A stretch of DNA of 64,000 bases from Patescibacteria group bacterium (GTDB lineage: Bacteria; Patescibacteriota; Microgenomatia; UBA8517), in the NCBI GenBank assembly GCA_022868165.1, contig JALHYA010000002.1, forward strand, positions 1,478 to 65,477, given 5' to 3'. Of this stretch, positions 8,381 to 49,966 are shown one piece after another; within the stretch, counting starts at the first letter, position 1, and each line of letters starts with the position of its first letter. The notes beneath the pieces were generated by a model that saw only the letters and a program-made list of their open reading frames with translations, did no database searches and was not told where the DNA came from. Position numbers and translations under genes: made by a program.

Positions 8381-8413
8381 TTAAAGTCGAAAAAATAAGA
8401 GAGGAATTGAGAA

Positions 8414-8970: not shown

Positions 8971-8978
8971 CTTTTATA

Positions 8979-9143: not shown

Positions 9144-9205
9144 CTTCCACCCCCTGTATACGAACTTGGTTGTTATTCTAACATACGAGAGTGTAGAATA
9201 AAACC

Positions 9206-9616
9206 ATGCGAAGGCGTAATGTTCTGCTCATTTTCAATGAGTTCGTTGTTGAACCAATTCTTTTGGCTTTTGGGATATTTATTATATTTCCGCATTTTCA
9301 AACTGTTTATAACAATACGATGCCATATAAGATACATATCAAGGACACTCCAACATTTATCAATGGTATGTGGAAGGATATGAATATGTATCCAACTCCG
9401 TACATAATTTTCGGCATTATATTTGTGATTTGGGTTTCGCTGAAAGCATACCGATTTTGGAGTGACCGAAAAACAGAAAATGAACTCAAAAAATCTATTG
9501 ATGAATTGCCCCAAAATATTGCCGAAGCATTAAAAATAGATGAGTTGCCCAGAAAGATTGCAGAGGCATTGAAACCATCTAGTGATATATCAAAAAGAGG
9601 CAAGGATAATGTCTGA
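9206..9616 (+). CDS. Membrane protein with duplicated IDELP(Q/R)(N/K)IAEALK segment
   Basis: ORF track 136 aa. 3 TM helices. 39-nt imperfect tandem repeat at ~9513-9590. Confidence 0.4.
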   Translation: MRRRNVLLIFNEFVVEPILLAFGIFIIFPHFQTVYNNTMPYKIHIKDTPTFINGMWKDMNMYPTPYIIFGIIFVIWVSLKAYRFWSDRKTENELKKSIDELPQNIAEALKIDELPRKIAEALKPSSDISKRGKDNV

Positions 9617-10637
9617 CGAGATAATCTGTAAATACTGCAACTCTGTAAATACCATTAAATTTGGTACTCATACAGATATAGACGGCAACGATATACAGCG
9701 TTACTTTTGTAAAGATTGCAATCGTAAATTTACTGGTTTGGATACGCTGGAAAAGATGCAAACGCCTATCCCTGTTATAGGAGCAGCATTGAATATGTAC
9801 TACAGTGGCATGTCTCTAGATAACATACAGATGCAGATAAAACAGGATTATGGCTTGGATTTATCCCAGATGGGTATCTATGATTGGATTATTCGATTCA
9901 CCAAAGATACTGTGCAGCGTACGCAAAATTTGAAGCTTAAAGTAGGCAACATCTGGATAGCGGACGAAACCGAGCTTGACGTGAGTGGGCAGAAGGCTTG
10001 GTTTTGGGACATCATAGACCGAGATAGCCGTTACTTGCTTGCTTCGTATTTATCGTTCTCTCGTGAAACAGAAGATGCTCAGATATTGATAGAACAAGCG
10101 ATAAAACGAGCGGGCAAGATACCCAATACCATCATTACGGACAAACTCAGTACCTATGTTGACGGCATTGATATTGCCACGCATGGCAAAACTATGCACA
10201 TACAGAGTACGCCATTTACGGGAACTAACAGCACGAACATAATTGAGAGATTTCATGGGACGTTAAAAGACCGCACGAAGGTACTCAGGGGATTCAAAGA
10301 CCTTGCCACAGCACAACTGATTACTAACGGCTTTCTGGTGCATTACAACTTCATACGTCCTCACGAATCCTTAGAAAACGAGACACCAATAGAGCATATG
10401 AAAGTAGCTACGCCGTTTCATACATGGGCAGAAGCAATCCGAACCTCAGAGATAAAGAGCGATTACTATACCGTTAAAGCAATCCGCTTTGTACCGATAG
10501 GAATACCAAGAACACCAAAACAAGAGAGGCGTGTGTATTTACGTAAAGCAGCACGAAGACATAGGGCAAGAGAGATGGGAAGTACAGAGCCTACTATGAG
10601 ACTAATGCAACGAGGTAGGAAGAAGAAACAACCATGA
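9582..10637 (+). mobile_element. IS6-family insertion sequence (only the transposase ORF extent is given; terminal inverted repeats not identified)
   Basis: Transposase family signature. Flanks were inspected but no convincing 14-bp IRs found by eye. Confidence 0.45.
9609..10637 (+). CDS. IS6-family DDE transposase with N-terminal transposase-type zinc ribbon
   Basis: Zn ribbon CKYCNS..QRYFCKDCNRKF. DDE triad contexts IADETELDV, ITDKLSTY, NIIERFHGTLKDR. Confidence 0.8.
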   Translation: MSDEIICKYCNSVNTIKFGTHTDIDGNDIQRYFCKDCNRKFTGLDTLEKMQTPIPVIGAALNMYYSGMSLDNIQMQIKQDYGLDLSQMGIYDWIIRFTKDTVQRTQNLKLKVGNIWIADETELDVSGQKAWFWDIIDRDSRYLLASYLSFSRETEDAQILIEQAIKRAGKIPNTIITDKLSTYVDGIDIATHGKTMHIQSTPFTGTNSTNIIERFHGTLKDRTKVLRGFKDLATAQLITNGFLVHYNFIRPHESLENETPIEHMKVATPFHTWAEAIRTSEIKSDYYTVKAIRFVPIGIPRTPKQERRVYLRKAARRHRAREMGSTEPTMRLMQRGRKKKQP

Positions 10638-30845: not shown

Positions 30846-32465
30846 CTATCTAGTCAAATCGGTGCTTAGCACTTCAAATACTTTTACCTTGCCATCAGTT
30901 GATTCCCATACTGGCTTGCCAAAGTAGAACAGCTTATACACAGCAGTGTCCTCCGGCTTCACATTGTTGACGTAAAATATTGGATAGGCATTGGTGGTGA
31001 ACATTTCCTTGTCAAGTATGATGTATCTCCATTTGTTGGCTACTATGTCTAAAGTAATATCTGATTTACAGAGTATATCATTGCCACACCCATTGCCCGG
31101 CGTGTAACTTGCCGGCATGTGCCCTGCTTGCACAATCCAATAGCCATAGTTCCAATGGCTAAGAACTCCATAATTAAGCCTATCCGATTTCTGTGTCTCA
31201 TATATAACTGGGTCAAAAAGCATACCACCGAAATAGCAACCGGGGCTTATCTCCACTCCTCCAGTAAAATATAATCCCTCTTTTACATCGGTGGGAACAT
31301 TAGCTGGTTGCGTTCTAAGCCAAGTACAACATTCTTGCCAAGCCTTGGGCATTGTACCGAGACCCGATGTGGCTATCACCGTACTTCTATAACCAAATAG
31401 CAAGCAGAGCATTAAGGTTAGTGCGACAATAATCCTTGTCATCTTGACTTTATCGGTTCTGAATAGTTTAACGATATAGACTGATATAAAGGCACTCATT
31501 ATGGCAATGTTGATAGCAGAGTAATAAGCAAAACGTCTTGCAGAGAAAGTTAGAGCTAACATAATTACAGACCATACCAGAAATAACAACGTTTCCTTGT
31601 TCTTAGATTTGATGTACTGATGTAGTAAAACTCCAATCCCAAACAAGGTAAGAAAGAAGGCAATGCTGAAGTATCCAATTACAGTCACGAAATCGAATTG
31701 CCCGGCAGTAAAGAATAGGGGCATCATTTCACCTACTGTAGTTGTGATATTGGGTATGAATATACTAAGATTTTTAAATATATTAGGTACAAATAAATAT
31801 ACTGCCCCATAGACAATGGCGATTACTACCCATGCCTGCCATTTTTTACAGAATAGGGCAATCAAAAATATGGCGAGGATGAACAGGAATAGAGGTGCTC
31901 CGTACCACGATAAGAGATACAGCCCTGTAAATACAAGACCAAATAAACTATATACAATTCTTTGCTTGCCATCTTTTACTGCAAGTATGCCAAACATCAT
32001 TATCGTAGTGAGCAACAGTATCTCAAGACAATGATAATCGGCAGCCCCAAGCATGGTACGGCTCAGTATCTCTCCGGGCATCAAGGCCAATAAGAATACG
32101 CTAAGTGCTGCAATTAGTTTTTCCTTGAATAAAGCCCTAGCTATGACATAAACAGGAATCAGGGTCAGGAGAAATAGAATTGGCGGTATCCACGCCCCGG
32201 CTGTTGTTGTGTCAGTGTGAAATAATTTAGCGGTCAGAGCTATCATGGCAGGAAATACCATCTGCGACATTGGTTCTGTACCTACAGGATAGTTAAAGAA
32301 ATAATCGTGTGCTGGTATATTAGGCCAAATATCGGCATAGCGTACCATGTAGTAGGCATCTACTGTGTTTAACTGTATGCCGTTATGAAGCGGTAGGATT
32401 ATGTGAAATAGAAGAAAAAATATAGCACTAAATCCAAGTAGCAGGGAAATGAGCCACTTGTTCAT
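30846..32465 (-). CDS. STT3/AglB/PglB-family oligosaccharyltransferase (short form)
   Basis: About 13 N-terminal TM helices. WWDYG-like motif SHWNYGYWIV in the C-terminal soluble domain. Confidence 0.6.
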   Translation of the reverse strand: MNKWLISLLLGFSAIFFLLFHIILPLHNGIQLNTVDAYYMVRYADIWPNIPAHDYFFNYPVGTEPMSQMVFPAMIALTAKLFHTDTTTAGAWIPPILFLLTLIPVYVIARALFKEKLIAALSVFLLALMPGEILSRTMLGAADYHCLEILLLTTIMMFGILAVKDGKQRIVYSLFGLVFTGLYLLSWYGAPLFLFILAIFLIALFCKKWQAWVVIAIVYGAVYLFVPNIFKNLSIFIPNITTTVGEMMPLFFTAGQFDFVTVIGYFSIAFFLTLFGIGVLLHQYIKSKNKETLLFLVWSVIMLALTFSARRFAYYSAINIAIMSAFISVYIVKLFRTDKVKMTRIIVALTLMLCLLFGYRSTVIATSGLGTMPKAWQECCTWLRTQPANVPTDVKEGLYFTGGVEISPGCYFGGMLFDPVIYETQKSDRLNYGVLSHWNYGYWIVQAGHMPASYTPGNGCGNDILCKSDITLDIVANKWRYIILDKEMFTTNAYPIFYVNNVKPEDTAVYKLFYFGKPVWESTDGKVKVFEVLSTDLTR

Positions 32466-37276: not shown

Positions 37277-37558
37277 TTATTTCCTTCTCCGTTTTGGCTT
37301 ACCAAACACCATTCTATCGAGTTTACTAAGCGTCTTCCCTACCGACTTTATGCCTTTACGCAAATCCGTTGAGCCTCTTCTGCCTTTCAGTTGTCTAGTT
37401 TTTGCTCTCAATGTTTCTAGCTCCTTCTTTGCATTGATTTCCCCTTGCAATGCTTTATGTCTAGCTCTTTCTGCTTCGGTTAAAGCCTTTAATCGCTTCG
37501 TGTTATCGATGGCTTGCCTGACTCGCCTCTGCCTTCGTTTCTGTAGATATTTCATCAC
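37277..37558 (-). CDS. Highly basic coiled-coil small protein
   Basis: ORF track 93 aa, Lys/Arg-rich. Confidence 0.5.
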   Translation of the reverse strand: MMKYLQKRRQRRVRQAIDNTKRLKALTEAERARHKALQGEINAKKELETLRAKTRQLKGRRGSTDLRKGIKSVGKTLSKLDRMVFGKPKRRRK

Positions 37559-38274
37559 GTCCTCCTGCGCATTTTCCTATAGAATTCCATCTTTTCATCC
37601 AAGTCCTGTATGTGCTGATAGGGACTCGGCGGCAATATTGGCTCTTTCTTAGGTCGTAGAAAACCTAGCGAGCCAAACATCGTTACCATACAAAGTAGAA
37701 AGAAGCCCACTAACCCCAAATTAGCCGGCATATTATTATCGAGATTAAAATAAGCAAAGAACATAAGCACCATCCACGCACCGGCTGACAACACGGAAAG
37801 CACTGCTCTCCTGTAAATAAAAGTCAAGGCACTAATCGCTAGAGCTATGGCTACTAACCCAATCCACAAATAAGATAAACTCATGAATTTCGCCTCTTTG
37901 CTTGCCCCGATTGCTTCCCAAATTCCATCAGCCCTCTGCGACCAAGCCCTGTAGTAAGCAACTCTTGGCGACGTAAGGTCAGCATTTGAATCCGTAAAAC
38001 TGCTGTCAGTTCCATAATACACCTGATAGCCGTCTGTTCTGTCTATAGGCAAACTGCCGTATTTGACCCTCACCATTGTGTTGACAGCACCCGCCGGCTT
38101 CGTCCATGATATTCCCAATTCGTAATCGCTGACATAGGTTAATGTGAAATTCCCCGGTGAGGCTACCACAATACCCGTAACGGTTATCACCACATCCGCC
38201 GTTGTCGATGCCAATGCCGGGAACGGCACTAATCCCACAACGAGCAACCCAAGAACTATAAACCATTTCCACAA
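37555..38274 (-). CDS. Secreted protein with C-terminal TM helices. N-terminal mature sequence STTADVVITVT. Paralogue of 38888-39400 and 39460-39636.
   Basis: Signal peptide plus conserved TTADVVIT box. 3 C-terminal TM helices. Confidence 0.6.
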   Translation of the reverse strand: MWKWFIVLGLLVVGLVPFPALASTTADVVITVTGIVVASPGNFTLTYVSDYELGISWTKPAGAVNTMVRVKYGSLPIDRTDGYQVYYGTDSSFTDSNADLTSPRVAYYRAWSQRADGIWEAIGASKEAKFMSLSYLWIGLVAIALAISALTFIYRRAVLSVLSAGAWMVLMFFAYFNLDNNMPANLGLVGFFLLCMVTMFGSLGFLRPKKEPILPPSPYQHIQDLDEKMEFYRKMRRRT

Positions 38275-38284
38275 TCTTATTACC

Positions 38285-38842
38285 TCATCGCATGCTAACC
38301 AACCATCGACTGCATAGCTCAGTAGTCACGGTTCCTGCCTGCGAATTATCCATAACGCTAATCCAAAATTCCCATTTCATAGGATAGTTGGTAACATCTT
38401 TCGGCATTTCAAGCACCACTAAGATATCCCTTGTTTCTCTTGGGGCAAGAACAGGCGTGGGGTCGGCCACAATCACCCAATCCTGAGCTCCTACAGGAGG
38501 TTTCTCATAGCCCGGAGCTACATACGATGGCTCACGATATGTAACCGCAAATTTAGCAGGTAAACTGTTGCCGTTATGCACAGTTATATTGTATTCAGCC
38601 CTAGCTCCCGGATAGTAATTACTAATGTTCACCTTGCCTGGGCTGAGCCACGTTCTATCAGCCGGAGGTTCTTGGCTTGTTTCGCTTGTAACCTCTTTAA
38701 TGGCTTCAGGTGTTTGCGAAGCATCGTTAGGAGCTGACGGCTGAGGTGCTACAGGCGGAACTGCAGGAGCCACAGGATATGCCTGTACACATCCAATAGA
38801 CAATATTCCGATTAGTACTAATCCTAAAACTAAGTACTTCAT
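38285..38842 (-). CDS. Secreted or lipoprotein-like Pro/Ala-rich protein
   Basis: Signal peptide LSIGC, then a PAVPPVAPQPSAP linker. Confidence 0.55.
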   Translation of the reverse strand: MKYLVLGLVLIGILSIGCVQAYPVAPAVPPVAPQPSAPNDASQTPEAIKEVTSETSQEPPADRTWLSPGKVNISNYYPGARAEYNITVHNGNSLPAKFAVTYREPSYVAPGYEKPPVGAQDWVIVADPTPVLAPRETRDILVVLEMPKDVTNYPMKWEFWISVMDNSQAGTVTTELCSRWLVSMR

Positions 38843-38887
38843 AGTTTCACCTTATGCGTGATTTGTATGCGCATCCCACTATTCTTT

Positions 38888-39400
38888 TTAGTTCGCTGCT
38901 GCAGCAGTTATCCGAGTTGTCACTACCTTTGCATCGCCATCGAGAAAGCTAGTCGGAGCCCATATTGAAAGCCCGAATTGGTAAGAGCCGCCAGTAGTTT
39001 GGTTATCAGAAAGCATTGCAGCCGAAGCGATTTTTGGCACTGTGATGTCGCTAGTGCCCCATGTGCCACCCTTGTTTGCTTTCAAGCCAACGGTAGCTAC
39101 CGCCGGAACACATGTGTCACTGTGAATCCAGCCAGCACCGCCAGACCAATTGTCGGTAGTATTAACACCGATAGTCTGGTCTGTCACTATAGTACAAGCA
39201 TTAGTTACGGTAAAGTAAGTCGTAGTCGTATTTTCAGTCGTACTTTCCGTTACAGATGGATTCCACACACCAGGGTCTACTGAGATGCTGATATAACCCG
39301 GTGTAGCAGTTATAACAACATCGGCAGTTTTAGCAGCAAATACAGCCGTCGGCATCAGCAACACTACCAAGACTAAGAACACAAACAACCATCTTTTCAT
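38888..39400 (-). CDS. Secreted protein, mature N-terminus AKTADVVITAT (paralogue family)
   Basis: Signal peptide plus conserved box. Thr-rich. Confidence 0.6.
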   Translation of the reverse strand: MKRWLFVFLVLVVLLMPTAVFAAKTADVVITATPGYISISVDPGVWNPSVTESTTENTTTTYFTVTNACTIVTDQTIGVNTTDNWSGGAGWIHSDTCVPAVATVGLKANKGGTWGTSDITVPKIASAAMLSDNQTTGGSYQFGLSIWAPTSFLDGDAKVVTTRITAAAAN

Positions 39401-39459
39401 TTTAGCATACCTCCTTTCCTTATTTCTATTATATCACAGTCGACCTCTGTGTGTATCAT

Positions 39460-39636
39460 TTATCTCTTCTCCATATTAACATTCACTCGTACAGTTACGT
39501 GTGATGATAGATATGAGTTATCGCTTTTGACCGTAACGTCTGTTGTAGTTGCTTTAGCAGGAATATCACTCGTGCCAAACATTATGACAATTAGCAAAGC
39601 AACTAAAATTACTAAACTTTTAATCTTTCCTCTCAT
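39460..39636 (-). CDS. Small secreted protein (58 aa), mature N-terminus AKATTTDVTVK (paralogue family)
   Basis: Hand-translated. ATGA overlap with the stop of the upstream 569-aa gene. Confidence 0.45.
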   Translation of the reverse strand: MRGKIKSLVILVALLIVIMFGTSDIPAKATTTDVTVKSDNSYLSSHVTVRVNVNMEKR

Positions 39637-41342
39637 GGTATGTACACCGTGCTAGTCAGCGTAACGTTATCGGACTTCGCCACGCCATCGGTAAATTCTC
39701 CGGTCTCAAGTTTCAATTCCCACATCATCGTTGTGTTGTCTCCTAAGTTAGATATAAAAGGCTGGTCACTTGTGGTTAGCGTTACGTTATCAGTAACCAC
39801 ATCACCGCTCTTAAAAGCTAAAAGCCGTACCGTGCCCAAGCCCGGTATATTCGATGTCAGAGTCCAATTATCCCCAGCACCGGTAAAATTTGTAGCCTTT
39901 ATGCTTATGTCTATTGCAACCGAACCATCATTGGTAACAGAAAAACTGCATTCGCCATTATCAATTGGAAATATAGGAGCTGAACCTTTTGCCCAGTAGT
40001 CTGCATTCTCCTGCACATCTCCGATAACCCAGTAATCAGGTGTATTTGAGATGCTTGCCGTATCCCAAATTAAGTCATCACTTTTATAGAAATATACTTG
40101 ACCTGCCCAATAGTCTTGGTCAGTAATCTCTAGATAAATAAGTGCAAAACCAGTCTTAGTCCTATTTGTTTTAAGCCCGCTTACAGTAGGATACAATGCC
40201 CATATTAGCACAGGTGCTTCAAACACCCCCCCCCCGTCTGCTATTACTTCTAGAGTCTGCCAAGATATAGTTCTCTTTCTGTATTTTACATAATCTCCTT
40301 CGACCCATACAGTATGGACATTGTCTTCTGAGTCCATAGATATAGAGGAGTAAATGTTATCTCCGTCCATATTAGTTATCGCTTCCTGAGTTTGCCAGGA
40401 GGTAGTCCTTTCCCTATACTGAACTTGGTAGTGACTAGTGTAATCACCCCAGCTAGTTCCACACCAAACGACATGAATACTGTCCTCTGAGTCTACAGCT
40501 ATAGAACAATCAACCTGGTCTCCGTCTACGTTAGTCACTGCCTCTTGAGTTTGCCACGATGTAGTCCTCTTTCTATATTGAATCTGAGAGTGAACAGGAT
40601 AGTCTCCCCAACCCATTCCCCTCCAAGCTACATGGACATTATCCTGTGAATCTATGGCAATGGTAACGCAGTCGCCCCCATATCCGTAGTGAGCTTGAAT
40701 ATTATCTATATTAGTTATATCTTCTTGGGTCTGCCAGGAGGTGGTTCTCTCTCTATAATGAATCTGATACTGATTAGTATAAGTTCCTGTTCCTTCCCCC
40801 GCCCAAACGACATGAATGTTGTCTTGTGAATCTATGGCTATAGAAGGGGAATGTTGATAATATTCTACGTTTGTTACAGCTTCTTGAGTTTGCCAAGAAG
40901 TGGTTCTTTTTCTATATTGAATCTGAGTATAGTCAGGGTAAGTGCCCCATCCATATCCTTCCCAAACAATGTGAATATTGTCTTCTGAATCCACAGCAAT
41001 AGAAGGATTCATTTGGTAATTGCCTGATGTTGTTACACTTTCTTCTGTCCATGTTTGACCATTGTTGGTAGAATAGGCACAGCATATATTATAATCCCAC
41101 GTTTCTGCATCCTCTCTCATATATGTAGCCCATAAAGTGCCATCACTTGTACGAGCCAAGTTTTTTTGCCCATTATAAATGTCAGTAAGTTCATCTGCTA
41201 ATAGATAGGTAGAACCACCAGGATTAGCATGAACTACTGGAGTATCAATAGAGGGAATAAATAAACCAGCAACAACCAAGAAGACAACCATCAATATGGG
41301 TATAACTGGTGTCTTAGCAAGTAGCCAAGTTATCTTTTTCAT
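39633..41342 (-). CDS. Secreted 569-aa protein with five tandem ~47-aa repeats (beta-propeller-like)
   Basis: Repeat unit ..DN(I/V)H(I/V)VW.G.GWG.Y....QIQYRKRTTSWQTQEA(V/I)TN(V/M)D. Confidence 0.7.
   Translation of the reverse strand: MKKITWLLAKTPVIPILMVVFLVVAGLFIPSIDTPVVHANPGGSTYLLADELTDIYNGQKNLARTSDGTLWATYMREDAETWDYNICCAYSTNNGQTWTEESVTTSGNYQMNPSIAVDSEDNIHIVWEGYGWGTYPDYTQIQYRKRTTSWQTQEAVTNVEYYQHSPSIAIDSQDNIHVVWAGEGTGTYTNQYQIHYRERTTSWQTQEDITNIDNIQAHYGYGGDCVTIAIDSQDNVHVAWRGMGWGDYPVHSQIQYRKRTTSWQTQEAVTNVDGDQVDCSIAVDSEDSIHVVWCGTSWGDYTSHYQVQYRERTTSWQTQEAITNMDGDNIYSSISMDSEDNVHTVWVEGDYVKYRKRTISWQTLEVIADGGGVFEAPVLIWALYPTVSGLKTNRTKTGFALIYLEITDQDYWAGQVYFYKSDDLIWDTASISNTPDYWVIGDVQENADYWAKGSAPIFPIDNGECSFSVTNDGSVAIDISIKATNFTGAGDNWTLTSNIPGLGTVRLLAFKSGDVVTDNVTLTTSDQPFISNLGDNTTMMWELKLETGEFTDGVAKSDNVTLTSTVYIP
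40352..41042. repeat. Five tandem ~140-nt coding repeats within the 569-aa gene
   Basis: Protein periodicity. Confidence 0.65.
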
Positions 41343-41989: not shown

Positions 41990-42271
41990 TTAGTATCCCG
42001 GTGGCAGCATTCCTGGTGGTTGTTTTGGTGGCTTCGGCGGAAAGATAAAGTCCTCTAAAGCCCAGACAAGAAATCCCAGAGGCACTACCAATGGAACAAA
42101 GGTCCCTATAGCAGTTATGTCTCTGGCATTCAGAAAATGGGCAGAAGATGACAGCATGGCAACAGCTACGCCTTTGACAATCCCATACCCGACACCGCCT
42201 GCAAATAAAGCTAGAGGTACTTTCCAGATTAGATTGACATACTTCTTGAACTCATCCATTTTATCTCGCAC
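41990..42271 (-). CDS. Small membrane protein (2 TM)
   Basis: ORF track 93 aa. Confidence 0.5.
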   Translation of the reverse strand: MRDKMDEFKKYVNLIWKVPLALFAGGVGYGIVKGVAVAMLSSSAHFLNARDITAIGTFVPLVVPLGFLVWALEDFIFPPKPPKQPPGMLPPGY

Positions 42272-45200
42272 CTCTTAGCGATGGCATAGGCTCTATCTGT
42301 GCCTTATGTTTTATGTGATGCTTTTTATATTTGTGAGCAAGCTCAAATTCTATTTCAGGTTTTTTACCAGCAGGTGTTTTGCTTATGTCAACATCCTGTA
42401 TGCCCATGCTAAATTTAATATCCTCTGGTATTCTACCATATTTGGCTATGATTGACTTTGCCACAGAGCCTATACCCTTTACATATTCAACTCCCTCAAT
42501 CGGGCTTCTGCTATAATAAGTATTCTTCTCAGGATAATGTCCATTCTTGTCTGGCCACTTTAGCCAAAAAATGAAACCCTGTTTCCAAGCCACAATGCCC
42601 TGTTTCTGTTTCTCTGTTAGTTCTATAGTTCCTTTGCCACCTGCACCGGGGATTATTATGATTGGCACAGGCAAACGAGGCTTTATAGGTGTTGCAAGTT
42701 TGGTAATTATCTTTTGTTGATATTTGGTTTCGATTAGTGTCTTGACCTTTGGGTTGGCAAGGGTTTTTAGCTGTGTTTGTATTGCAGCCCTTGTAGCTGC
42801 TTCAATTTTGGCTTGCAACTCTGCATTCGTTGCCGTTATGGTGGCTAGGTTCAGTTGAGTCTTCGTTAATCCCGCAGTACTGACACGAGAACTCGTCATG
42901 GCATCTACAAGCGTCTCATTATATGCTTTAATGGCTGCTTCAGTTACTGCTTGAAGCCCAGCCTGTAATTCTTTCTCTAATCCAGTCAGCGGCCTGGAAA
43001 CTGTAGTCACTATCTTAGGCATAAAAACACCAGGAATCTCAGGCATCTCTATAGGTTTTTCCGGCAACCACGGAGAGGTGGTAAAAATAAGTTTTCCACT
43101 AGTTCCAAATTTCGGTTCCTTCATTCCGGGAAAGACACTTCGGGTCTCTAATGTAACTTTTGGTTGAATAGCAATATGATTTGTGACTTTATAGGTCGAT
43201 TCACTATCGGAGATAACCTTCGGCACTTTTGTTGCACCTTCGGGCACGCTGGGTTTTTCTTTGATTTTATAATTTGGCTCTAACTCTAAGTCAAAAGTTA
43301 ATTGCTCGGCAACAACTGGCCTTTCTGCTACTGCAACAGGTCGAGGTCTTTGTTCAATTGTCTCTCTGGTTATCTCAATTTCCTTGCCAGTCTTTAGGTC
43401 AATCGCCTTTTCTTTGACAGTTTTCACAATGGGGCTGGCGGGAGAGATTGGCTCTTTTGGTTCAAGTTTGCTCTTCGGAGTCTTGCCCCAGTATGGCTCT
43501 GCTTTGCCAAAGCCCATTTTGTAATAGGTGGTTGCGTCAGCCGGCAAAGGCTGCCCTTTATTCATTAACTTGGTATATTCTGCCATTTTGGATTCTAGGT
43601 CGCCAATATCGCTATTCAATGACCTCAAATCATCTCTGATTATTTCTTTCTCTCCAGACGATGTGACTGGATTAGAATATTCTCTTTCGGCAATGCTACG
43701 TTGCCTCTTTGCCATTTCTAACCTTTTCTCTATTGTATTGATAACTTCTACGGAAGATGGTGCAGCAGTTGTCCGATACCGAGGCTTTGAGATATTGTCG
43801 TTCCAATTCTCAAGTGTTGCGTTCAATTTAGTTTTAGCATCATCAAGATTCTTTAATGCCTGCAATCTTTGAGGAGTATTCACCTTTGTTTTATCAACAA
43901 CATTCCAAGCCTTGTTAACACCTGAGATTGATTGGTTGATATCTTTGATACCTTGCCCGATACTTAACTTACCTCCAAGTTCTTTGAGCCTCTGCAACTG
44001 AGAAGTTGTCAGTTTTTCCGATACCTTTTCTGTTAAGCCTTTTAACTCTATAATTTCAGCAGGCGTCTTGTTTGTTATGCCTTGAAGTTGCTTTACTCTT
44101 GACAAAGTCTTGGCAGACATTGAAGATTCAGATATCTTCTGAACACTTATTTTATCAAGTTTACTCAATCTTTGAAATTCCAGTTCTTCCATTTTTGTTC
44201 TACCAATTAATTTGCTTAGTTTCTCCAATTGGCCAAGTTCCTTTGGAGTTATATCCTGTAATATCTGTAATTTGTTAAAGAGTGCTTTGTCAGTAACTCT
44301 CGATTTCTGTATAGCCTTCTGAACATCATTGGCTAACCTTGCATAACTATTGCTCTTCAAAGGAATCTTCTCAAGTTTAGTTAAACTTACTTTCATATCA
44401 TCATAAGCTGCGCCACTCTCTTTGGCTAACTTCAGAAGCTTCTCTGCTTCTAATCTGCCAACGCCAACTGCAACTTTGCCCTTTACTGACTCAAAGGCAA
44501 CTGCCTGTGGAACATTGGCTCGCAAGATTGCTGCTTCCTCTGGAGAAACAGTGACTAACTTATCTAGTTTTGCCTGCAAGGATTTAAGACTGATAGAATC
44601 TGGATGCACCAAAGCCTTTTTGAGATACCTACCAGAAAGGACATAATGTTCTGCCTCGGCTGGTGCCCATGTAGCAGCTTCTCCAGTAGGCTTAAACTTG
44701 GGCAGTTCTTTTGTAGGTATGTCAACAAAGTAAAGAACACTCTCGCCTTTTCCAGCTGTGTATGCTTTTGCCTCTCCAATATCTGCCGAGTACCACCTGC
44801 CTGATACCTTTTTCTCAGCACCAGCTAACTCGGCAGCAGTCTTGCCTCCAGTCATATAACTTCTGCCGGGTGAAGGCTCGCCACGATATACTCTTGTATA
44901 ACCTTCAGCTACCGGCATCGCTTTGCTTCTCAATATACCCAACTCTTGAGTATTCGCTATCTGCTTTATTGCTACAGAAGGCATTTTCGCTGTCTTGGGA
45001 ATCTCTACTTTAGCCTGTGCTTTAGCAGGTAGAGACCTGATTCCTTTCAGTCCACTCAGCACACCAGAAATAACCCAAGCATCCATCAAGGCACTAATAG
45101 CTATGTTTTTCTTTGCTTCATCTTGTTCAGCTATTGTCATGGTATCCCATTTTGTCATAACATCATTGGCACTCTTGACTGTTTCAGCAGTGAAGACTAC

Positions 45201-47528
45201 GCCTGCCGCTGACTGAATCCCTATGCTTGTTAATTTGCCAGCCAGTGGTGAAATAACTCTTCCAGCAGCTCCTCCGGCACCCGGCGCAGCCAGCAGAGCT
45301 ATTTGAGCTACTCCAACTCCCCATTCCATAGCAGTTATATCTTTCGGAGATATCTCAGGATATGTCATCTTGCCTGGCGTCCACAAAGTTGCTATTATTC
45401 CAGCACCAACAGCTAATTGCGATTGCCTTGTGCCATAAAGTTGTTCATACTTGAAAGCTGCCAAGTCTCTCATATTAGCTTTATCTAAATCCTTATGGAG
45501 AAACGCATGTACATCACCAATTCCTCTAGCAGCAGCATATTCAGCAGTAAAAGCATCTAAGGACAAGGATGGTTGTACACTCTTTCTGACAGCCTCTGCT
45601 CTCATTCCATTGACAGTTTGGAATAACTCTGCTGCCAACTGGGGGTATTGCTTGATAAATATGTCATGTTCTTGCCTAGCCTCATAACTAACTGCCGGAT
45701 AGAGTAGATGACTGAAAATTGGAAATTCACCCTTGGTCTCTCTTTGTATCTTATTCCAGACTGCTTCAACTTTGTTTTCCTCAGCAAACGGTTGTTTGTT
45801 GAACTCAACAGCATTGTCAATATCAACCTTTTTAAAACCAGCAAGCACAAGTTCACTTGCCAACTCTGGCTTATTCCCATTATCTCTTAGAAAAGAAGCG
45901 ACATCATAACCATCTTTGCTCTTGTAACTGACAAGCCTAGATTGGACTTCACCTTGCAAAGAGTTTAGTGCCACAATACCTTTCTCTTGCAAAAATTGCT
46001 GCACTTCAGGAGTTGATTTATTGAAATCCACCCTGGGCATATTTTCGCCAGTCGCTCCGAGCGTGATATACTTCGTTTTGAAAGCATACATATAGGCATC
46101 ATATCCATGTTCCGATAAAATCCCCGCCAATATAGAATCACTTTTTGTTAGTTCAGCTAAGGAATCTTTATCAACAAGCTCGCCTGTCTTTTTTATTGTT
46201 ATATAAATAGCTTTTAGCCCATCATTTACTGCCAATTTCTGCTTCTCAGTAGACAAGTTATCAAAAGTATTCTTTGGCAATAAGTCACCATTTTTCATTT
46301 GCACAGCAGAGATATTTGAGCCATCCGCAGTTTGTGCAATAGTTAATTTAGCACCAAGTTTTTCATATTGTGCTGATTGCTGAGCTATTTGAGGTACTAA
46401 GACTCTATATTCTTCTCTAGCCTTCAGCTTTTCTGTTATCGTTTCCCTTGGCATAGACTGGATAGCCTTAGTTTCAGCTTCATATTTTACTTTATCAGTA
46501 GGAGATAGTTCTGCAATAGCCTTCGCTGTTAATTTCTGACCTACAAGTTCACTTGCACCCTTATATTCAATGACATTGCCGCCAAGCTTTTGCACAGCCA
46601 AGGCTTCAGGAGTTATGCCCCATGTGCCACCAAGAACTGAAGATGTCCCTATGTAAACAGCTTCTACCCCTTTCATTTCTGGTAAACTTATAGGATTAAA
46701 GGTACTCACACTCTTTGGCCATTCTCCGGCTATTGCTGTTGGTGGAGAAATCGTTTTTTGCGTGCTATCAGGCCACTTGCCACCTATCCAAATCCTATTG
46801 CCTCCCGCATCAATCCCAATGTTTGGGTCAGCGGTTTTGGCAAATATCTCGTCCCTGCCCATATTGCTAAAATTAGTAATTATGATTAAGTCTTTTGAGC
46901 CGCCATAAGCTGTTTTCAGCCAAGATTGGAAACTGTCGGCACCACGAGCCTGCACTTCACTCTGCCAAGCAACAGGCAACTTATCATAATCCGTTTTGGC
47001 AATCCATGAACCATCATTTAGTTGAATGTTTTGAGATTTGAAAGTTTCAAACTCTGCCGTTTTCTTCTTGTTGAATTCCTCAATGCCTATGCTAGACAGC
47101 AAGGTTTTGTCATCAGCACTCAATGAATCGTAAAGCGTTTTAGTTACCCAACTGCCATCTTTCAGTTGAATATTGTTTGCCTTAAAATCAGTTTCCTTCT
47201 GGGCATAAAAGTTGTTGAAACCCTGTATGCCAAGTTGCCTCAGCCGAGCTTGATCGTCTTCACTCAGTTTGTAAAAAGTTTCCTTATTCACCCACGATCC
47301 ATCAGACAACTGCACATTATCCGCCATCATAGCCGGTGTCTGCTGAGCACTTGATGGAGCAGCCTGACTAATCGCAGCAGGAGCCTTCACGCCAAGTCCA
47401 GCAACCCTTTGCCTTTCCGCTAAAGCAGCGACATTTCTAGCAGCCTGTAACCTGCTTTGCAGTTGGACTTCAGTTTCAGCCATTATTGTTCGCCGCTCCT
47501 CATATTGCCCAATCCTATGATGATGCAA
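42261..47528 (-). CDS. Giant 1755-aa coiled-coil/repeat protein. Tape-measure-like or large surface/scaffold protein.
   Basis: Size, extensive predicted coiled coil, N-terminal triplicated ~37-aa motif. No enzymatic motifs recognised. Confidence 0.7.
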   Translation of the reverse strand: MHHHRIGQYEERRTIMAETEVQLQSRLQAARNVAALAERQRVAGLGVKAPAAISQAAPSSAQQTPAMMADNVQLSDGSWVNKETFYKLSEDDQARLRQLGIQGFNNFYAQKETDFKANNIQLKDGSWVTKTLYDSLSADDKTLLSSIGIEEFNKKKTAEFETFKSQNIQLNDGSWIAKTDYDKLPVAWQSEVQARGADSFQSWLKTAYGGSKDLIIITNFSNMGRDEIFAKTADPNIGIDAGGNRIWIGGKWPDSTQKTISPPTAIAGEWPKSVSTFNPISLPEMKGVEAVYIGTSSVLGGTWGITPEALAVQKLGGNVIEYKGASELVGQKLTAKAIAELSPTDKVKYEAETKAIQSMPRETITEKLKAREEYRVLVPQIAQQSAQYEKLGAKLTIAQTADGSNISAVQMKNGDLLPKNTFDNLSTEKQKLAVNDGLKAIYITIKKTGELVDKDSLAELTKSDSILAGILSEHGYDAYMYAFKTKYITLGATGENMPRVDFNKSTPEVQQFLQEKGIVALNSLQGEVQSRLVSYKSKDGYDVASFLRDNGNKPELASELVLAGFKKVDIDNAVEFNKQPFAEENKVEAVWNKIQRETKGEFPIFSHLLYPAVSYEARQEHDIFIKQYPQLAAELFQTVNGMRAEAVRKSVQPSLSLDAFTAEYAAARGIGDVHAFLHKDLDKANMRDLAAFKYEQLYGTRQSQLAVGAGIIATLWTPGKMTYPEISPKDITAMEWGVGVAQIALLAAPGAGGAAGRVISPLAGKLTSIGIQSAAGVVFTAETVKSANDVMTKWDTMTIAEQDEAKKNIAISALMDAWVISGVLSGLKGIRSLPAKAQAKVEIPKTAKMPSVAIKQIANTQELGILRSKAMPVAEGYTRVYRGEPSPGRSYMTGGKTAAELAGAEKKVSGRWYSADIGEAKAYTAGKGESVLYFVDIPTKELPKFKPTGEAATWAPAEAEHYVLSGRYLKKALVHPDSISLKSLQAKLDKLVTVSPEEAAILRANVPQAVAFESVKGKVAVGVGRLEAEKLLKLAKESGAAYDDMKVSLTKLEKIPLKSNSYARLANDVQKAIQKSRVTDKALFNKLQILQDITPKELGQLEKLSKLIGRTKMEELEFQRLSKLDKISVQKISESSMSAKTLSRVKQLQGITNKTPAEIIELKGLTEKVSEKLTTSQLQRLKELGGKLSIGQGIKDINQSISGVNKAWNVVDKTKVNTPQRLQALKNLDDAKTKLNATLENWNDNISKPRYRTTAAPSSVEVINTIEKRLEMAKRQRSIAEREYSNPVTSSGEKEIIRDDLRSLNSDIGDLESKMAEYTKLMNKGQPLPADATTYYKMGFGKAEPYWGKTPKSKLEPKEPISPASPIVKTVKEKAIDLKTGKEIEITRETIEQRPRPVAVAERPVVAEQLTFDLELEPNYKIKEKPSVPEGATKVPKVISDSESTYKVTNHIAIQPKVTLETRSVFPGMKEPKFGTSGKLIFTTSPWLPEKPIEMPEIPGVFMPKIVTTVSRPLTGLEKELQAGLQAVTEAAIKAYNETLVDAMTSSRVSTAGLTKTQLNLATITATNAELQAKIEAATRAAIQTQLKTLANPKVKTLIETKYQQKIITKLATPIKPRLPVPIIIIPGAGGKGTIELTEKQKQGIVAWKQGFIFWLKWPDKNGHYPEKNTYYSRSPIEGVEYVKGIGSVAKSIIAKYGRIPEDIKFSMGIQDVDISKTPAGKKPEIEFELAHKYKKHHIKHKAQIEPMPSLRGAR

Positions 47529-48133: not shown

Positions 48134-49966
48134 TTACACTATACTCCTGATTCTGTAAATGCCATAGCCGATACCAACCAATGAGACAAATATCGGTACA
48201 AGCACCGGTATATGCAATGTAGGATAGGCTACCCAACTAGCAAATACACAGATTATCACAATAGCCTCTATACTATGCGTCCACTTGTAAATGGCATAAG
48301 ACAAACCAGCCAAGATTATTAGTAGGAAGATGTATGTAAGGCTGCCCATCGGTATTCCGGTTGAAGTAGAACCTCCTCTGATAAACACAAACAGGGGTAT
48401 ATTGTTTTCCAATGCAGCAGATACGCTTGGTGTCTGCGTCATACTACTAGGATTGCTTATTGCCGTGCCAGTAGTACCTATTGCAGAGCCAGCCGCAAGC
48501 GTTGTAGCATGTATTATGGTGTAATTATCGCTATATAATAATACTGGGTCATAACCTACTAAAAGATAGCAATAATCAATTCCGCTTGTCAGCCCAACAT
48601 GTGTGAAAGTGGAGCCGGTGGCAACATATATCAGGGCACCATCTGTTTCATCAGCTGGACAAGCATTGGCTCTGAATCTTATATAAGTATTGGGAGCACC
48701 GACACCCTTTACCCACGACAGTACAACATTGTCGTAGCCAGGTATAGCAGTGACATTGCTTGGGCTGCCCACACTTGACCCTGTTACAAATGATTTGCTT
48801 GTACCATTATCAGAACCGCAGACATTTTGAGCTTGCACATTGAAGTAAGTCGTGTTGTCAGAAACCAAATTATCAACATCAAGATATGGACTTTGACCTA
48901 TGGTATAAGCACCTGCAAAAGCCGAAGGTGAACCTACTCCGTTATAGGCATCTATGTCAGTACCTTTGTCTATTGACCCCCAGCCGAACCTGACTTGGCA
49001 GGTAGTTCCACCATCATCAACAAGATAAGACTGCAATCTAGCCGAAGATACGGTTTTATCAGTTGCATCAGCAGTTGCTATTACAGGGTCTTTCCAAGTG
49101 GTAAAACTTTTAGTAGTCCCCCAGCTTGTTCCTTCGGAATTTGTTGCGCTTGCACTGAAATACATCAGAGTGCCAGGGACTAAGCCAGTAACATCATGAT
49201 AAAATGCTGCTATGCCCTGAGTTGGCGTGCCAGGAGAAGTGATATTGTCCCCAGTAACACTATTGTCCCAACTTCCGGGTGTCGTCACGCCGTCATTATC
49301 ACCCCAATAAACAGTCACCGCAGGATCTACACCACCAGTGACCGTAATATTGCCATTCAAGGTCGCACTAGTACAAGCGAAAGGATTTGCTGTGCTTGTA
49401 GTTACTGTAGGTGCCGACAAAGGAGTATAATTAACGGTAATTTTAAGATAAGAAATGTGGACAGTAGAAGAACCGTCAGGAATAATGCTTTTTATTCCCC
49501 ACTCTGCATTATTCAAATCTGCTGTAGACCAGCCTGTTGTGGAAAAAGTGTATGTGCTTGTTTGATATACATACGTATTACTATATAGTATTGTGCCATA
49601 ATAGTTTGCGCCACCTATTCTGTAATAAGGAGTCGTTGAAGTACTTGCATTGCCTCCTCCATACCAAACCCTCGTCAAAGTTACACTATCTATTGACTGT
49701 GCAGGTTCTGCAAAATCAACCATATTGTAGCAATGATACCAGACACCATAATTATTAGTAATTAAATAACTTGTATCGCCATCATCTGAATTTAGATTAG
49801 TATAATCTCCGCCTGGCAAATAACCGCCATCCGTCTGCCCGCCTTCACCCGTAATATTTTCACTTATTGAATCAGCATACACAGGCTGTACAAAAGGTTG
49901 CACAAAAGGCAATGTCAAGCCTACCAGAAACAACAACAAAACCAGAGAATAAAATATCTTTTTCAT
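48134..49966 (-). CDS. Exported Thr/Ser/Gly-rich surface protein (611 aa) with multiple C-terminal TM helices
   Basis: ORF track 48134-50173. Start moved to MKKIFYSLVLLLF (signal peptide), which gives an ATGA overlap with the upstream stop. Confidence 0.65.
   Translation of the reverse strand: MKKIFYSLVLLLFLVGLTLPFVQPFVQPVYADSISENITGEGGQTDGGYLPGGDYTNLNSDDGDTSYLITNNYGVWYHCYNMVDFAEPAQSIDSVTLTRVWYGGGNASTSTTPYYRIGGANYYGTILYSNTYVYQTSTYTFSTTGWSTADLNNAEWGIKSIIPDGSSTVHISYLKITVNYTPLSAPTVTTSTANPFACTSATLNGNITVTGGVDPAVTVYWGDNDGVTTPGSWDNSVTGDNITSPGTPTQGIAAFYHDVTGLVPGTLMYFSASATNSEGTSWGTTKSFTTWKDPVIATADATDKTVSSARLQSYLVDDGGTTCQVRFGWGSIDKGTDIDAYNGVGSPSAFAGAYTIGQSPYLDVDNLVSDNTTYFNVQAQNVCGSDNGTSKSFVTGSSVGSPSNVTAIPGYDNVVLSWVKGVGAPNTYIRFRANACPADETDGALIYVATGSTFTHVGLTSGIDYCYLLVGYDPVLLYSDNYTIIHATTLAAGSAIGTTGTAISNPSSMTQTPSVSAALENNIPLFVFIRGGSTSTGIPMGSLTYIFLLIILAGLSYAIYKWTHSIEAIVIICVFASWVAYPTLHIPVLVPIFVSLVGIGYGIYRIRSIV

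What the first reader, a model, noticed from the sequence alone, without database searches (positions are those of the whole stretch)
37555..39636. Three paralogous secreted proteins share a conserved mature N-terminus (TTADVVIT box)
After cleavable signal peptides, 38888-39400 (AAKTADVVITATPG), 37555-38274 (ASTTADVVITVTG) and the unannotated 58-aa ORF at 39460-39636 (AKATTTDVTVKS) begin with the same short box, then diverge in length to 58, 170 and 239 aa. The longest has C-terminal TM helices. A conserved N-terminal box on subunits of different lengths recalls major and minor subunits of a polymerising fibre such as a pilus or fibril. The signal peptides are Sec-type rather than prepilin-type.
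Basis: seen in the sequence. Interest (0 to 1): 0.55.

Follow-up and report, generated by a model that had tools for sequence, protein, structure and literature searches.

The report
Usher-free donor-strand pilus gene module
The shared "TADVVIT" box is real. It is probably the strand that links the subunits of a surface fibre encoded by a conserved four-gene module (tip adhesin, pilin, PapD-like lipoprotein, membrane anchor). The module resembles chaperone-usher pili but has no usher, and I found no published description of it.

Summary
The box is real for two of the three proteins. P3 (38888-39400) and P1 (37555-38274) carry TADVVIT[A/V]T two to three residues after predicted Sec cleavage sites. 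They are unrelated beyond their first 33 residues. The 58-aa ORF P4 is a marginal singleton.

The box is a hallmark of both protein families. In 35 loci, the P3 and P1 boxes of the same locus co-vary: 59% identity against 45% for shuffled pairs, and 0 of 10,000 shuffles reach the observed value.

The P3 domain without the box forms the extreme C-terminus of many long secreted proteins with variable N-terminal domains. In every locus examined with enough sequence, one of these lies directly upstream of P3; here it is P5 (39633-41342).

The gene between P3 and P1, P2 (38285-38842), is a conserved lipoprotein. Its confident AlphaFold model matches PapD-like domains, including the pilus chaperones Caf1M, FimC and PapD.

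The order tip-pilin-lipoprotein-anchor recurs on mobile-element-like contigs and in one bacterial chromosome. No usher gene was found beside it.

Best reading (confidence 0.6): a fibre built by donor-strand complementation with chaperone-usher polarity. The tip only accepts a strand, the pilin donates and accepts, and the membrane anchor only donates. The lipoprotein acts as a tethered chaperone. Polymerisation itself is inferred, because no multimer model or experiment was possible.

The parts
39633..41342 (-). P5, predicted tip adhesin (569 aa). It has a signal peptide, a repeat region with weak beta-propeller (SBBP) and BNR-like Pfam matches, and a C-terminal P3-like acceptor domain that lacks the box.
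   Evidence: Pfam gives weak SBBP and BNR_2 matches. hhalign aligns P3-family profile positions 44-172 to P5 residues 430-565, E=7e-5. hmmsearch gives E=1.1e-6. A protein of the same architecture lies directly upstream of P3 in other loci.
39648..40055 (-). Acceptor (pilin-like) domain of P5, residues about 430-565. It starts where the P3 domain starts after the box and ends 4 residues from the C-terminus.
   Evidence: Among the 150 best profile hits, 69 long proteins carry this domain 0-4 residues from their C-terminus, and the match most often starts at profile positions 39-40.
39460..39636 (-). P4, a 58-aa ORF made of a signal peptide, a box-like strand (TTTDVTVKS at about 39526-39546) and a short tail. 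It is either a strand-only peptide or the relic of a second pilin gene.
   Evidence: Its ATG overlaps the P5 stop codon (ATGA). hhalign to the P3 profile gives E=1e-4. hmmsearch gives E=4.9e-4 and E=0.039. No homologue was found in 96 other loci. L025 carries two tandem P3 genes.
39401..39455 (-). Intergenic region upstream of P3, with a promoter-like site (TACACA, 16-nt spacer, TG-extended TATAAT) and the strongest ribosome-binding site of the cluster (AAGGAAAGGAGG).
   Evidence: These are consensus matches only. They fit P3 being the most abundant subunit.
38888..39400 (-). P3, predicted major pilin (170 aa): Sec signal peptide, donor-strand box, then an all-beta acceptor domain that runs to the C-terminus.
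   Evidence: The family of about 170-aa proteins conserves the mature N-terminus A|xTTADVTVTATPxYISISV. A profile search finds 834 relatives at E<=1e-3. The AF2 model has pLDDT 76 and pTM 0.70. The best PDB match is a type-1 fimbrial subunit, 5n2b_A, at a weak E=4e-3.
39302..39328 (-). Box TADVVITAT of P3, residues 24-32, predicted strand beta-1.
   Evidence: The position profile is V 97%, T, V/I, T, A, T, P, with hydrophobic residues alternating with Thr.
38285..38842 (-). P2, a lipoprotein (185 aa): signal peptide with a lipobox Cys18 (codon 38789-38791), a variable Pro/Thr-rich linker, and a conserved 125-aa domain with a PapD-like fold. Predicted membrane-tethered chaperone.
   Evidence: G17 and C18 are conserved in at least 90% of 43 homologues. 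AF2 pLDDT is about 97 over residues 61-185. Foldseek against the PDB gives 168 hits at E<=1e-3, led by PapD-like/ASH domains and the chaperones Caf1M, DraB, CsuC, FaeE, PapD, SfaE and FimC. A P2 homologue lies directly upstream of P1 in 21 of 28 loci with enough sequence.
37555..38274 (-). P1, predicted membrane anchor and fibre terminator (239 aa): Sec signal peptide, the same box, an fn3-like domain, three C-terminal hydrophobic segments and a basic tail.
   Evidence: The box is conserved across the family (xTSxDVTITATG). Start codons are often GTG or TTG: 18 of 43, against 0 of 11 for P3.
38176..38202 (-). Box TADVVITVT of P1. It lies N-terminal to the fn3-like domain, which starts at PGNFTLTYVSD.
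   Evidence: It co-varies with the P3 box of the same locus.

Best explanation
Genes 37555-41342 encode a surface fibre assembled by donor-strand complementation. The TADVVIT box is the donor strand: an amphipathic beta-strand exposed at the new N-terminus after signal-peptidase cleavage.

Proposed roles:

- **P5 is the tip.** A variable binding domain is followed by a C-terminal pilin-like domain that can accept a strand but has none to give.
- **P3 is the repeating pilin.** Its box inserts into the domain of the subunit ahead of it, and its own domain accepts the box of the next subunit.
- **P1 ends and anchors the fibre.** It offers the same box but has no acceptor domain, and it sits in the cytoplasmic membrane through three helices.
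- **P2 is the chaperone.** It is a lipid-anchored single domain with a PapD-like fold. It would hold freshly secreted subunits at the membrane and be displaced by the next incoming box. This would make an outer-membrane usher unnecessary.

The polarity is that of chaperone-usher pili.

Shown: the anatomy, the conservation, the co-variation of the boxes, the separability of strand and acceptor domain, the predicted fold of P2, and the gene order.

Inferred: polymerisation, polarity, the chaperone role of P2, the terminator role of P1, and whether the fibre sits on a cell or on a particle.
For: 1. **The box defines two unrelated families at the same place.** It lies 2-3 residues after the A-x-A cleavage site in both. 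The position profiles are nearly identical, with hydrophobic residues alternating with Thr.

2. **Selection, not gene conversion.** Five of 7 box codons differ synonymously between P1 and P3.

3. **Co-variation.** The test used 35 unique same-locus P3/P1 box pairs.
   - They are 59% identical over 9 core positions, against 45% (sd 2.2) when pairs are shuffled. None of 10,000 shuffles reaches the observed value.
   - There are two box types: TTADVTVTATP with TSxDVTITATG (29 loci), and NPxVTITVSA in both proteins (5 loci). Only one locus is mixed.

4. **Strand and acceptor domain are separable modules.**
   - Among the 150 best of 834 profile hits, 71 are pilins of about 173 aa that match from the signal peptide onward.
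   - Another 69 are long proteins (median 510 aa, up to 1328 aa). Their match most often starts just after the box and ends 0-4 residues from the C-terminus.
   - In L005, an 879-aa protein carries a C-terminal copy of the neighbouring pilin's domain that starts at SVSISV, without the box.
   - P5 fits this pattern.

5. **The box recurs on other anchor scaffolds.** In the bacterial chromosome L092 it reads NTADITITATPG and is followed by a Gly-rich linker, other domains and a single transmembrane helix. In L002 it is followed by an extra domain.

6. **P2 is a conserved lipoprotein with a PapD-like predicted fold.** Its matches include many chaperone-usher chaperones.

7. **Conserved gene order.** The order tip-P3-P2-P1 holds in almost all loci with enough sequence. 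In L092 the module stands alone between housekeeping genes, so it appears self-contained.

8. **Expression signals fit a major pilin and a rare terminator.** P3 has the best ribosome-binding site and its own promoter-like site. P1 often starts with GTG or TTG.
Against: - No multimer model, structure or experiment shows a strand inserting in trans.
- The P3 fold match to a chaperone-usher pilin is weak (E=4e-3, TM 0.44-0.50). Jelly-roll and carbohydrate-binding-module hits score similarly.
- In P3 the box is joined to the next strand by only about two residues (P-x). It could instead form an intramolecular hairpin.
- Tip proteins may supply a non-homologous strand of their own.
- The PapD-like/MSP/ASH fold is a widespread Ig-like sandwich. 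P2 has one domain rather than two, and Pfam PapD_N and PapD_C do not match it.
- The co-variation test does not correct for relatedness among loci.
- Four of 28 loci have no P2 detectable with this HMM. Those inspected do carry a divergent lipoprotein at the same position.
Confidence: 0.6

Rival explanations
1. The proteins form a fixed, non-polymerising surface complex. One P5, one or a few P3 and one P1 are joined by strand augmentation into a short spike on the envelope of a virus-like particle or on the cell. P2 is a structural Ig-like lipoprotein at its base.
For: - The window and most related contigs look like mobile elements: HNH endonuclease, DUF5131, DNA methylases, a small P-loop ATPase, many small ORFs, and no tRNA or rRNA.
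- P1 has a basic cytoplasmic tail and is followed by a very basic 93-aa protein, as in envelope proteins that contact a genome.
- Nothing here measures how many P3 copies are present.
Against: - P3 has both a donor strand and an acceptor domain, which is the arrangement that allows open-ended polymerisation.
- P3 has the strongest translation signals of the cluster.
- The module also stands alone in a bacterial chromosome between housekeeping genes.
- No match was found in IMG/VR, INPHARED or the BFVD viral structure library.
Confidence: 0.17
2. The box is a shared sorting or processing signal rather than a structural strand. It might be recognised by a dedicated peptidase, by the glycosylation machinery, or by P2 to retain proteins at the membrane. 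Co-variation would then reflect co-evolution with that one recogniser.
For: - The box sits immediately after the cleavage site. TasA/TapA and tafi pilins depend on dedicated signal peptidases (TafD: PMC11821415, PMC12337348; TasA/TapA with SipW is from my own knowledge).
- Glycosylation genes, including an STT3/AglB-like transferase, are linked to the module in the window, L007 and L095.
- Co-variation alone cannot separate a shared recogniser from a shared groove.
Against: - No peptidase gene is part of the conserved module. In L092 the module contains only tip, pilin, lipoprotein and anchor.
- The box has no N-x-S/T sequon.
- Tip proteins and P2 are secreted without the box.
- A sorting signal does not explain why the acceptor domain always sits at the extreme C-terminus, or why it exists with and without the box.
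Confidence: 0.13
3. The similarity is chance, or the ordinary composition of signal-peptide cleavage regions.
For: Signal peptides are compositionally alike, and this inflates N-terminal alignment scores.
Against: - The motif occurs only at these three sites in six frames of 64 kb.
- It is conserved across families that are 30-70% identical overall.
- It co-varies within loci.
- It is absent from four other secreted proteins in the window.
Confidence: 0.02

Closest known systems
Chaperone-usher pili of diderm bacteria (type 1/Fim, P/Pap, Caf1, Csu)
   Same: - The logic and polarity match. The pilin has an N-terminal donor strand and an acceptor domain.
- The adhesin has two domains, and its C-terminal pilin domain lacks the donor strand, as in FimH.
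- A terminating subunit donates a strand but cannot be extended (compare PapH; this comparison is from my own knowledge).
- A protein with a PapD-like fold is encoded in the operon.
- The best PDB match of the pilin model is a type-1 fimbrial subunit, though weakly.
   Different: - No usher was found.
- The PapD-like protein has one domain, is lipid-anchored, and matches no Pfam PapD model.
- The terminator is an integral cytoplasmic-membrane protein.
- No sequence similarity to any solved pilin was found.
- The host envelope is unknown. A cytoplasmic-membrane anchor suggests assembly on that membrane rather than through an outer membrane.
Haloarchaeal Tat-fimbriae (tafi: TafA/TafE pilins, TafC tip, TafF anchor) and their Sec-dependent DUF1102 relatives (PMC11821415, PMC12337348)
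   Same: - A multi-gene locus encodes a tip with a lectin-like domain, pilins, and an anchor with three C-terminal transmembrane helices.
- Strand donation is the proposed assembly mechanism.
- The pilins are glycosylated.
   Different: - The polarity is opposite. In tafi models the tip donates its N-terminal strand and the anchor TafF carries an acceptor domain.
- Tafi loci encode a dedicated signal peptidase, TafD, with TafG, and no PapD-like protein.
- No DUF1102 match was found in any of the 20 P3-family members.
Archaeal threads (Saci_0406 with Saci_0405), bundling pili (AbpA), TasA fibres and Pyrodictium cannulae (CanA)
   Same: - Sec signal peptide cleaved by signal peptidase I.
- The first residues of the mature protein are conserved and form the donor strand.
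- A strand-only or groove-less partner is encoded next door: Saci_0405 is proposed as a cap (PMC9715654).
   Different: - Cannulae are described as assembling without a chaperone (title of 10.1101/2024.12.30.630787). For threads the assembly pathway is unknown and no chaperone has been identified.
- No tip adhesin with a C-terminal acceptor domain and no donor-only membrane anchor came up in what I read of these systems.
- No sequence relation to P3 was found.
Type V pili of Bacteroidia (FimA/Mfa1); comparison from my own knowledge
   Same: Fibres are built by strand exchange, have anchor, stalk and tip subunits, and involve lipoproteins.
   Different: - There the pilins themselves are lipoproteins.
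- The donor strand is C-terminal.
- A protease activates the subunits.
- Here only P2 is a lipoprotein and the strand is N-terminal.

Membership tests
Chaperone-usher pilus system | An outer-membrane usher (Pfam Usher, PF00577) encoded with the pilins | tested here: not met
   No usher match among the window proteins scanned. In L092 the module is flanked directly by housekeeping genes.
Chaperone-usher pilus system | A two-domain periplasmic PapD-type chaperone (PapD_N plus PapD_C) | tested here: not met
   P2 has a PapD-like fold by Foldseek (E about 1e-6 to Caf1M, DraB, CsuC, PapD and FimC). However, it has a single 125-aa domain, a lipobox, and no Pfam PapD_N or PapD_C match. The resemblance is at fold level only.
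Chaperone-usher pilus system | A pilin with an incomplete Ig-like fold and an N-terminal extension that completes the neighbouring subunit | tested here: inconclusive
Chaperone-usher pilus system | A two-domain tip adhesin whose C-terminal pilin domain lacks the N-terminal extension | tested here: met
   P5 fits. So do 69 of the 150 best profile hits and the L005 879-aa protein. This is shown at sequence level.
Type IV pili / archaeal type IV pilins | A class III (prepilin) signal peptide with a conserved hydrophobic N-terminal helix retained in the mature pilin | tested here: not met
   The cleavage sites are A-x-A type and are followed by a polar beta-strand. Only P4 gives a sub-threshold Pilin_N match (E=0.011, 17 bits against a 25.2-bit cut-off). 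No prepilin peptidase or assembly ATPase was seen.
Tafi / DUF1102 fimbriae | A DUF1102/TafA-like pilin, a TafD signal peptidase in the locus, and a tip that donates its N-terminal strand | tested here: not met
   No DUF1102 match in 20 family members. No peptidase in the module. The polarity is opposite.
TasA/camelysin, thread and ABP families | Sequence or profile homology to Peptidase_M73/TasA or arCOG10215 | tested here: not met
   No Pfam hit. A profile search of all PDB sequences returned nothing, even at E<=10.
Sortase-assembled pili | A C-terminal LPXTG-type sorting signal and a sortase gene | tested here: not met
   P3 ends ...RITAAAAN, 0-2 residues after the conserved domain, with no sorting motif or transmembrane tail. 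No sortase was found among the scanned proteins.

The most novel reading that the evidence does not exclude
This is a previously unrecognised assembly pathway for donor-strand pili: chaperone-assisted but usher-free. A lipid-anchored, single-domain PapD-like chaperone keeps subunits and the growing fibre at the cytoplasmic membrane. A donor-only transmembrane protein terminates and anchors the fibre. The pathway occurs in uncultivated anaerobic-sediment bacteria and possibly archaea, and is spread by their mobile elements together with glycosylation genes. It would be either an evolutionary relative of the chaperone-usher pathway that predates the usher or escaped from it, or a striking convergence on the same logic.
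Probability: 0.35. Interest if true: 0.8.

Novelty: new variant of a known kind. Interest (0 to 1): 0.68.

Why it matters
Donor-strand complementation is known in two settings. In diderm bacteria it needs a periplasmic chaperone and an outer-membrane usher. In TasA fibres and archaeal cannulae it proceeds without a chaperone, and no chaperone is known for archaeal threads, bundling pili or tafi.

A module that pairs chaperone-usher-style subunits with a PapD-like protein, has no usher, and anchors the fibre in the cytoplasmic membrane would sit between these two settings. It could show how such fibres are built on a single membrane, and where PapD-type chaperones came from.

The four proteins have no Pfam, NCBIfam or PHROG family, although the pilin domain alone has more than 800 representative relatives. 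Defining them would annotate a large block of metagenomic 'dark matter'.

The variable tip domains are candidate adhesins or receptor-binding proteins of uncultivated organisms or their mobile elements.

Tried and rejected
- **Family scans.** Pfam, PHROGs and NCBIfam scans of P1-P5 and their neighbours gave no family for P1-P4.
- **PDB sequence searches.** Single sequences and profiles found nothing for P3 or P2, and only a weak fn3 consensus hit for P1.
- **P3 as a known viral capsid or fibre protein: not supported.** The BFVD search gave nothing at E<=1e-3. tblastn against 50,697 phage and archaeal-virus records found nothing. IMG/VR gave nothing.
- **P2 as a distant, box-less paralogue of the P3 acceptor domain: rejected.** hhalign finds similarity only in the signal peptide.
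- **P4 as a conserved strand-only subunit: not supported.** No other locus has one.
- **Archaeal type IV pilin reading of P4: rejected.** The Pilin_N match is below threshold.
- **Recent gene conversion as the source of the shared box: rejected.** The box codons differ at synonymous sites.
- **Host assignment: unresolved.**
  - The window is binned as Patescibacteria and L011 as Dehalococcoidia.
  - One chromosomal copy is clearly bacterial, with bL27 and DnaN nearby.
  - The window's own STT3 is closest to an archaeal model.
  - Promoter and terminator scans were uninformative on this point.
- **Literature.** Searches found no description of a PapD-like protein linked to archaeal or monoderm donor-strand pili.
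Full report
**Observation**

The region 37555-41342 holds five co-directional minus-strand genes. I call them P5 (39633-41342, 569 aa), P4 (39460-39636, 58 aa), P3 (38888-39400, 170 aa), P2 (38285-38842, 185 aa) and P1 (37555-38274, 239 aa).

P3 and P1 begin with similar Sec-type signal peptides ending in A-x-A. After two to three more residues they read TADVVITAT and TADVVITVT. P4 reads TTTDVTVKS at the same place. A six-frame regular-expression scan finds this motif only at these three sites in the 64-kb window. By my rough estimate about 0.05 matches would be expected by chance.

The other secreted proteins in the window (P2, P5, and the 679-aa and 919-aa proteins) lack the motif. BLASTP aligns P1 and P3 only over residues 1-33 (17/33 identical), so they are not paralogues over their length.

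After the box, P1 continues as an fn3-like domain (PGNFTLTYVSDYELGISW...), three hydrophobic segments and a basic tail. The box codons of P1 and P3 differ at 5 of 7 synonymous sites. The amino-acid identity is therefore maintained by selection, not by recent gene conversion.

**The box is a family hallmark**

P3 has 20 homologues in a 5.8-billion-protein collection. All are about 170 aa and share the mature N-terminus A|xTTADVTVTATPxYISISV. P1 has 18 homologues, with xTSxDVTITATG before the fn3-like domain.

With 80 further metagenomic loci, the position profiles of the two families are almost superimposable: V (96-97%), T, V/I, T, A, T, then P in P3 or G in P1. Hydrophobic residues alternate with threonines, as expected for an amphipathic beta-strand.

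**Co-variation**

In 35 unique loci that carry both genes, the P3 and P1 boxes of the same locus are 59% identical over nine core positions. Shuffled pairs give 45% (sd 2.2), and none of 10,000 shuffles reaches the observed value.

There are two box types. Twenty-nine loci have TTADVTVTATP with TSxDVTITATG. Five loci have NPxVTITVSA in both proteins. Only one locus is mixed. The test does not correct for relatedness among loci. It does, however, compare two different gene families, so shared descent alone does not predict convergence on the same residues.

**Strand and domain are separable**

A profile of the P3 family, searched exhaustively against 1.84 billion representatives, finds 834 proteins at E<=1e-3 and 380 at E<=1e-10. 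The best 150 fall into two classes.

- Seventy-one are pilins with a median length of 173 aa. They match from the signal peptide onward.
- Sixty-nine are long proteins (median 510 aa, up to 1328 aa). Their match ends 0-4 residues from the C-terminus and most often starts at profile positions 39-40. The box occupies positions 25-35, so these matches begin just after it.

The N-terminal parts of the long proteins are diverse and mostly unknown. A few contain Big_5 repeats, laminin-G or DUF2341 domains.

In every locus examined with enough sequence, such a protein lies directly upstream of the pilin gene. In L005 its C-terminal domain is a close copy of the neighbouring pilin that starts at SVSISV, without the box.

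The window's P5 fits this pattern. After its repeat region, which gives weak beta-propeller (SBBP) and BNR-like Pfam matches, residues 430-565 align with the P3 profile after the box (hhalign E=7e-5; hmmsearch E=1.1e-6).

The box also occurs on anchors built differently from P1. In L092 a 336-aa protein has a signal peptide, NTADITITATPG, a glycine-rich linker, unrelated domains and a single transmembrane helix. In L002 the box precedes an extra domain.

There are thus three classes of protein: acceptor-only, donor-plus-acceptor, and donor-only with a membrane anchor. That is the parts list of a fibre built by donor-strand complementation.

**The fourth component**

P2 is the most conserved protein of the module, with 154 homologues that are 42-75% identical in the aligned sample. 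It has no Pfam, NCBIfam or PHROG family.

Gly17-Cys18 at the end of its signal peptide is conserved in at least 90% of 43 aligned homologues, which is a lipobox. A variable Pro/Thr-rich linker follows, and then a 125-aa domain.

AlphaFold2 models that domain at pLDDT of about 97. Foldseek against the PDB returns 168 hits at E<=1e-3. The list is led by PapD-like/ASH/MSP domains and by many chaperone-usher chaperones: Caf1M, DraB, CsuC, FaeE, PapD, SfaE and FimC, at E of about 1e-6 to 1e-5 and probability 1.00.

P2 is not detectably related to the P3 domain.

The AlphaFold2 model of P3 is all-beta (pLDDT 76, pTM 0.70), and the box forms strand 24-32. Its best PDB match is a Burkholderia type-1 fimbrial subunit. 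That match is weak (E=4e-3), and jelly-roll hits score similarly.

**Context**

Of 28 loci with at least 2.5 kb upstream of P1, 21 have P2 adjacent and a P3-type domain upstream. Most of the exceptions I inspected have a divergent lipoprotein at the P2 position.

Beyond this module, almost nothing in the window is shared with other loci, apart from close relatives L007, L009 and L010.

The window looks like a mobile element.

- It has no tRNA or Rfam hits.
- It carries an IS240-type transposase, an HNH endonuclease, DUF5131 and DNA methylases.
- It carries a 20-kb glycosylation cluster with an STT3/AglB-like transferase.
- It has no relatives in IMG/VR or among known phages.

The module also occurs alone in a bacterial chromosome (GCA_042408205.1). 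There it lies between genes for bL27, histidine biosynthesis, methylmalonyl-CoA mutase and DnaN, with no usher nearby.

The host of the window's element is unresolved. It was binned as Patescibacteria.

**Mechanism proposed**

After Sec export and cleavage, the box is exposed at the N-terminus. I propose the following sequence.

1. P5 starts the fibre, because it can only accept a strand.
2. P3 subunits add at the base. Each inserts its box into the subunit ahead of it.
3. P2, tethered to the membrane by its lipid, caps free subunits and the basal subunit. The next incoming box displaces it, as in donor-strand exchange at the usher.
4. P1 donates its box but cannot be extended. This stops growth and fixes the fibre in the membrane.

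Expression signals fit this scheme. P3 has the best ribosome-binding site and a promoter-like site of its own. P1 genes often start with GTG or TTG (18 of 43, against 0 of 11 for P3).

The strictly C-terminal position of the acceptor domain recalls the role of the free C-terminus of chaperone-usher pilins. That comparison is from my own knowledge and was not tested.

P4 may be a strand-only cap, or the remnant of a second pilin gene. L025 has two tandem pilin genes. I leave P4's role open.

**Comparison with known systems**

The logic and polarity are those of chaperone-usher pili. Two defining features of that family are not met: there is no usher, and there is no two-domain PapD chaperone. 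I therefore do not file the module as a member of that family.

Tafi have a similar parts list, but the polarity is opposite and they use a dedicated peptidase. Cannulae are described as assembling without a chaperone. For threads the assembly pathway is unknown and no chaperone has been identified.

Literature searches found no description of a PapD-like protein linked to donor-strand fibres outside diderm bacteria.

I rate this a new variant of a known kind.

**Limits**

Noticed in passing
window 17840-19834 (-): The GDP-mannose 4,6-dehydratase gene is interrupted by an insertion of about 330 aa, placed between NHE and SPRRGETF. The insertion starts with Ser, ends in His-Asn, and contains LAGLIDADG-like motifs (FIGYIVGDGH, YEGYYMADG). 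It looks like an intein with a homing endonuclease. Pfam reported the dehydratase in two stretches and no intein model.
   Followed up: partly
window 30846-32465 (-); L007 16205-17764: The element carries an STT3-type oligosaccharyltransferase. Its best NCBIfam match is the archaeal model TIGR04154 (E=1.6e-60, below the cut-off). It is 61% identical to, and syntenic with, the gene in L007. A 20-kb glycan-synthesis cluster lies next to it (12-30 kb), with GT2 enzymes, two B12-binding radical SAM enzymes, DegT and DUF2206. L095 also has glycosylation genes right after the module. The fibre may be glycosylated by genes carried on the element itself.
   Followed up: partly
window 48134-52722 (-): Two further large surface proteins are encoded here. 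One is a 919-aa protein with DUF2341 and C-terminal transmembrane helices. The other is about 610 aa from its likely start (MKKIFYSL...). Its last fn3-like domain and transmembrane region resemble those of P1, and relatives occur in 20 loci. Its mature N-terminus (DSISENITG) is not a clear box.
   Followed up: partly
window 42261-47528 (-): A 1755-aa protein with no family match: its N- and C-terminal parts are rich in Lys, Glu and Ala, and a hydrophobic stretch lies in the middle. Size-matched counterparts (1354-1479 aa) occur in L007 and L002. Its function is unknown.
   Followed up: no
window 9582-10637 (+): An IS240/IS6-type DDE transposase sits at the switch in gene orientation, where genes change from the plus strand (1-11 kb) to the minus strand (11-64 kb).
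   Followed up: no
L092 8339-9371: In the bacterial chromosomal copy, the tip gene is split over two overlapping reading frames (8339-8956 and 8886-9371). The acceptor domain lies in the second frame. This could be a frameshift, a sequencing error or a pseudogene.
   Followed up: no
L097 1-965 and 4203-5267: The same bacterial contig carries bL27 and DnaN, and also encodes two tubulin-family proteins with the CetZ_C domain. I know this domain mostly from archaea.
   Followed up: no
L011 2659-5418; L057 6059-8818; L060 6066-8786: In these tip proteins (906-919 aa), the P3-like acceptor domain matches the profile in three pieces that are separated by insertions of 150-200 residues. Whole domains appear to be inserted into loops of the pilin-like domain.
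   Followed up: no
L025 1127-1750 and 1776-2354: This locus has two tandem pilin genes, both with boxes (ETSQDVTVTATP and ATSQDVTVTATP). This is a possible major/minor pilin pair, and a model for what P4 in the window may once have been.
   Followed up: no
window 37277-37558 (-): Directly after P1 lies a very basic 93-aa protein with a predicted coiled coil. It is conserved in L007 and L010. Small charged proteins occupy the same position in L004 and L008. Any link to the module is unknown.
   Followed up: no
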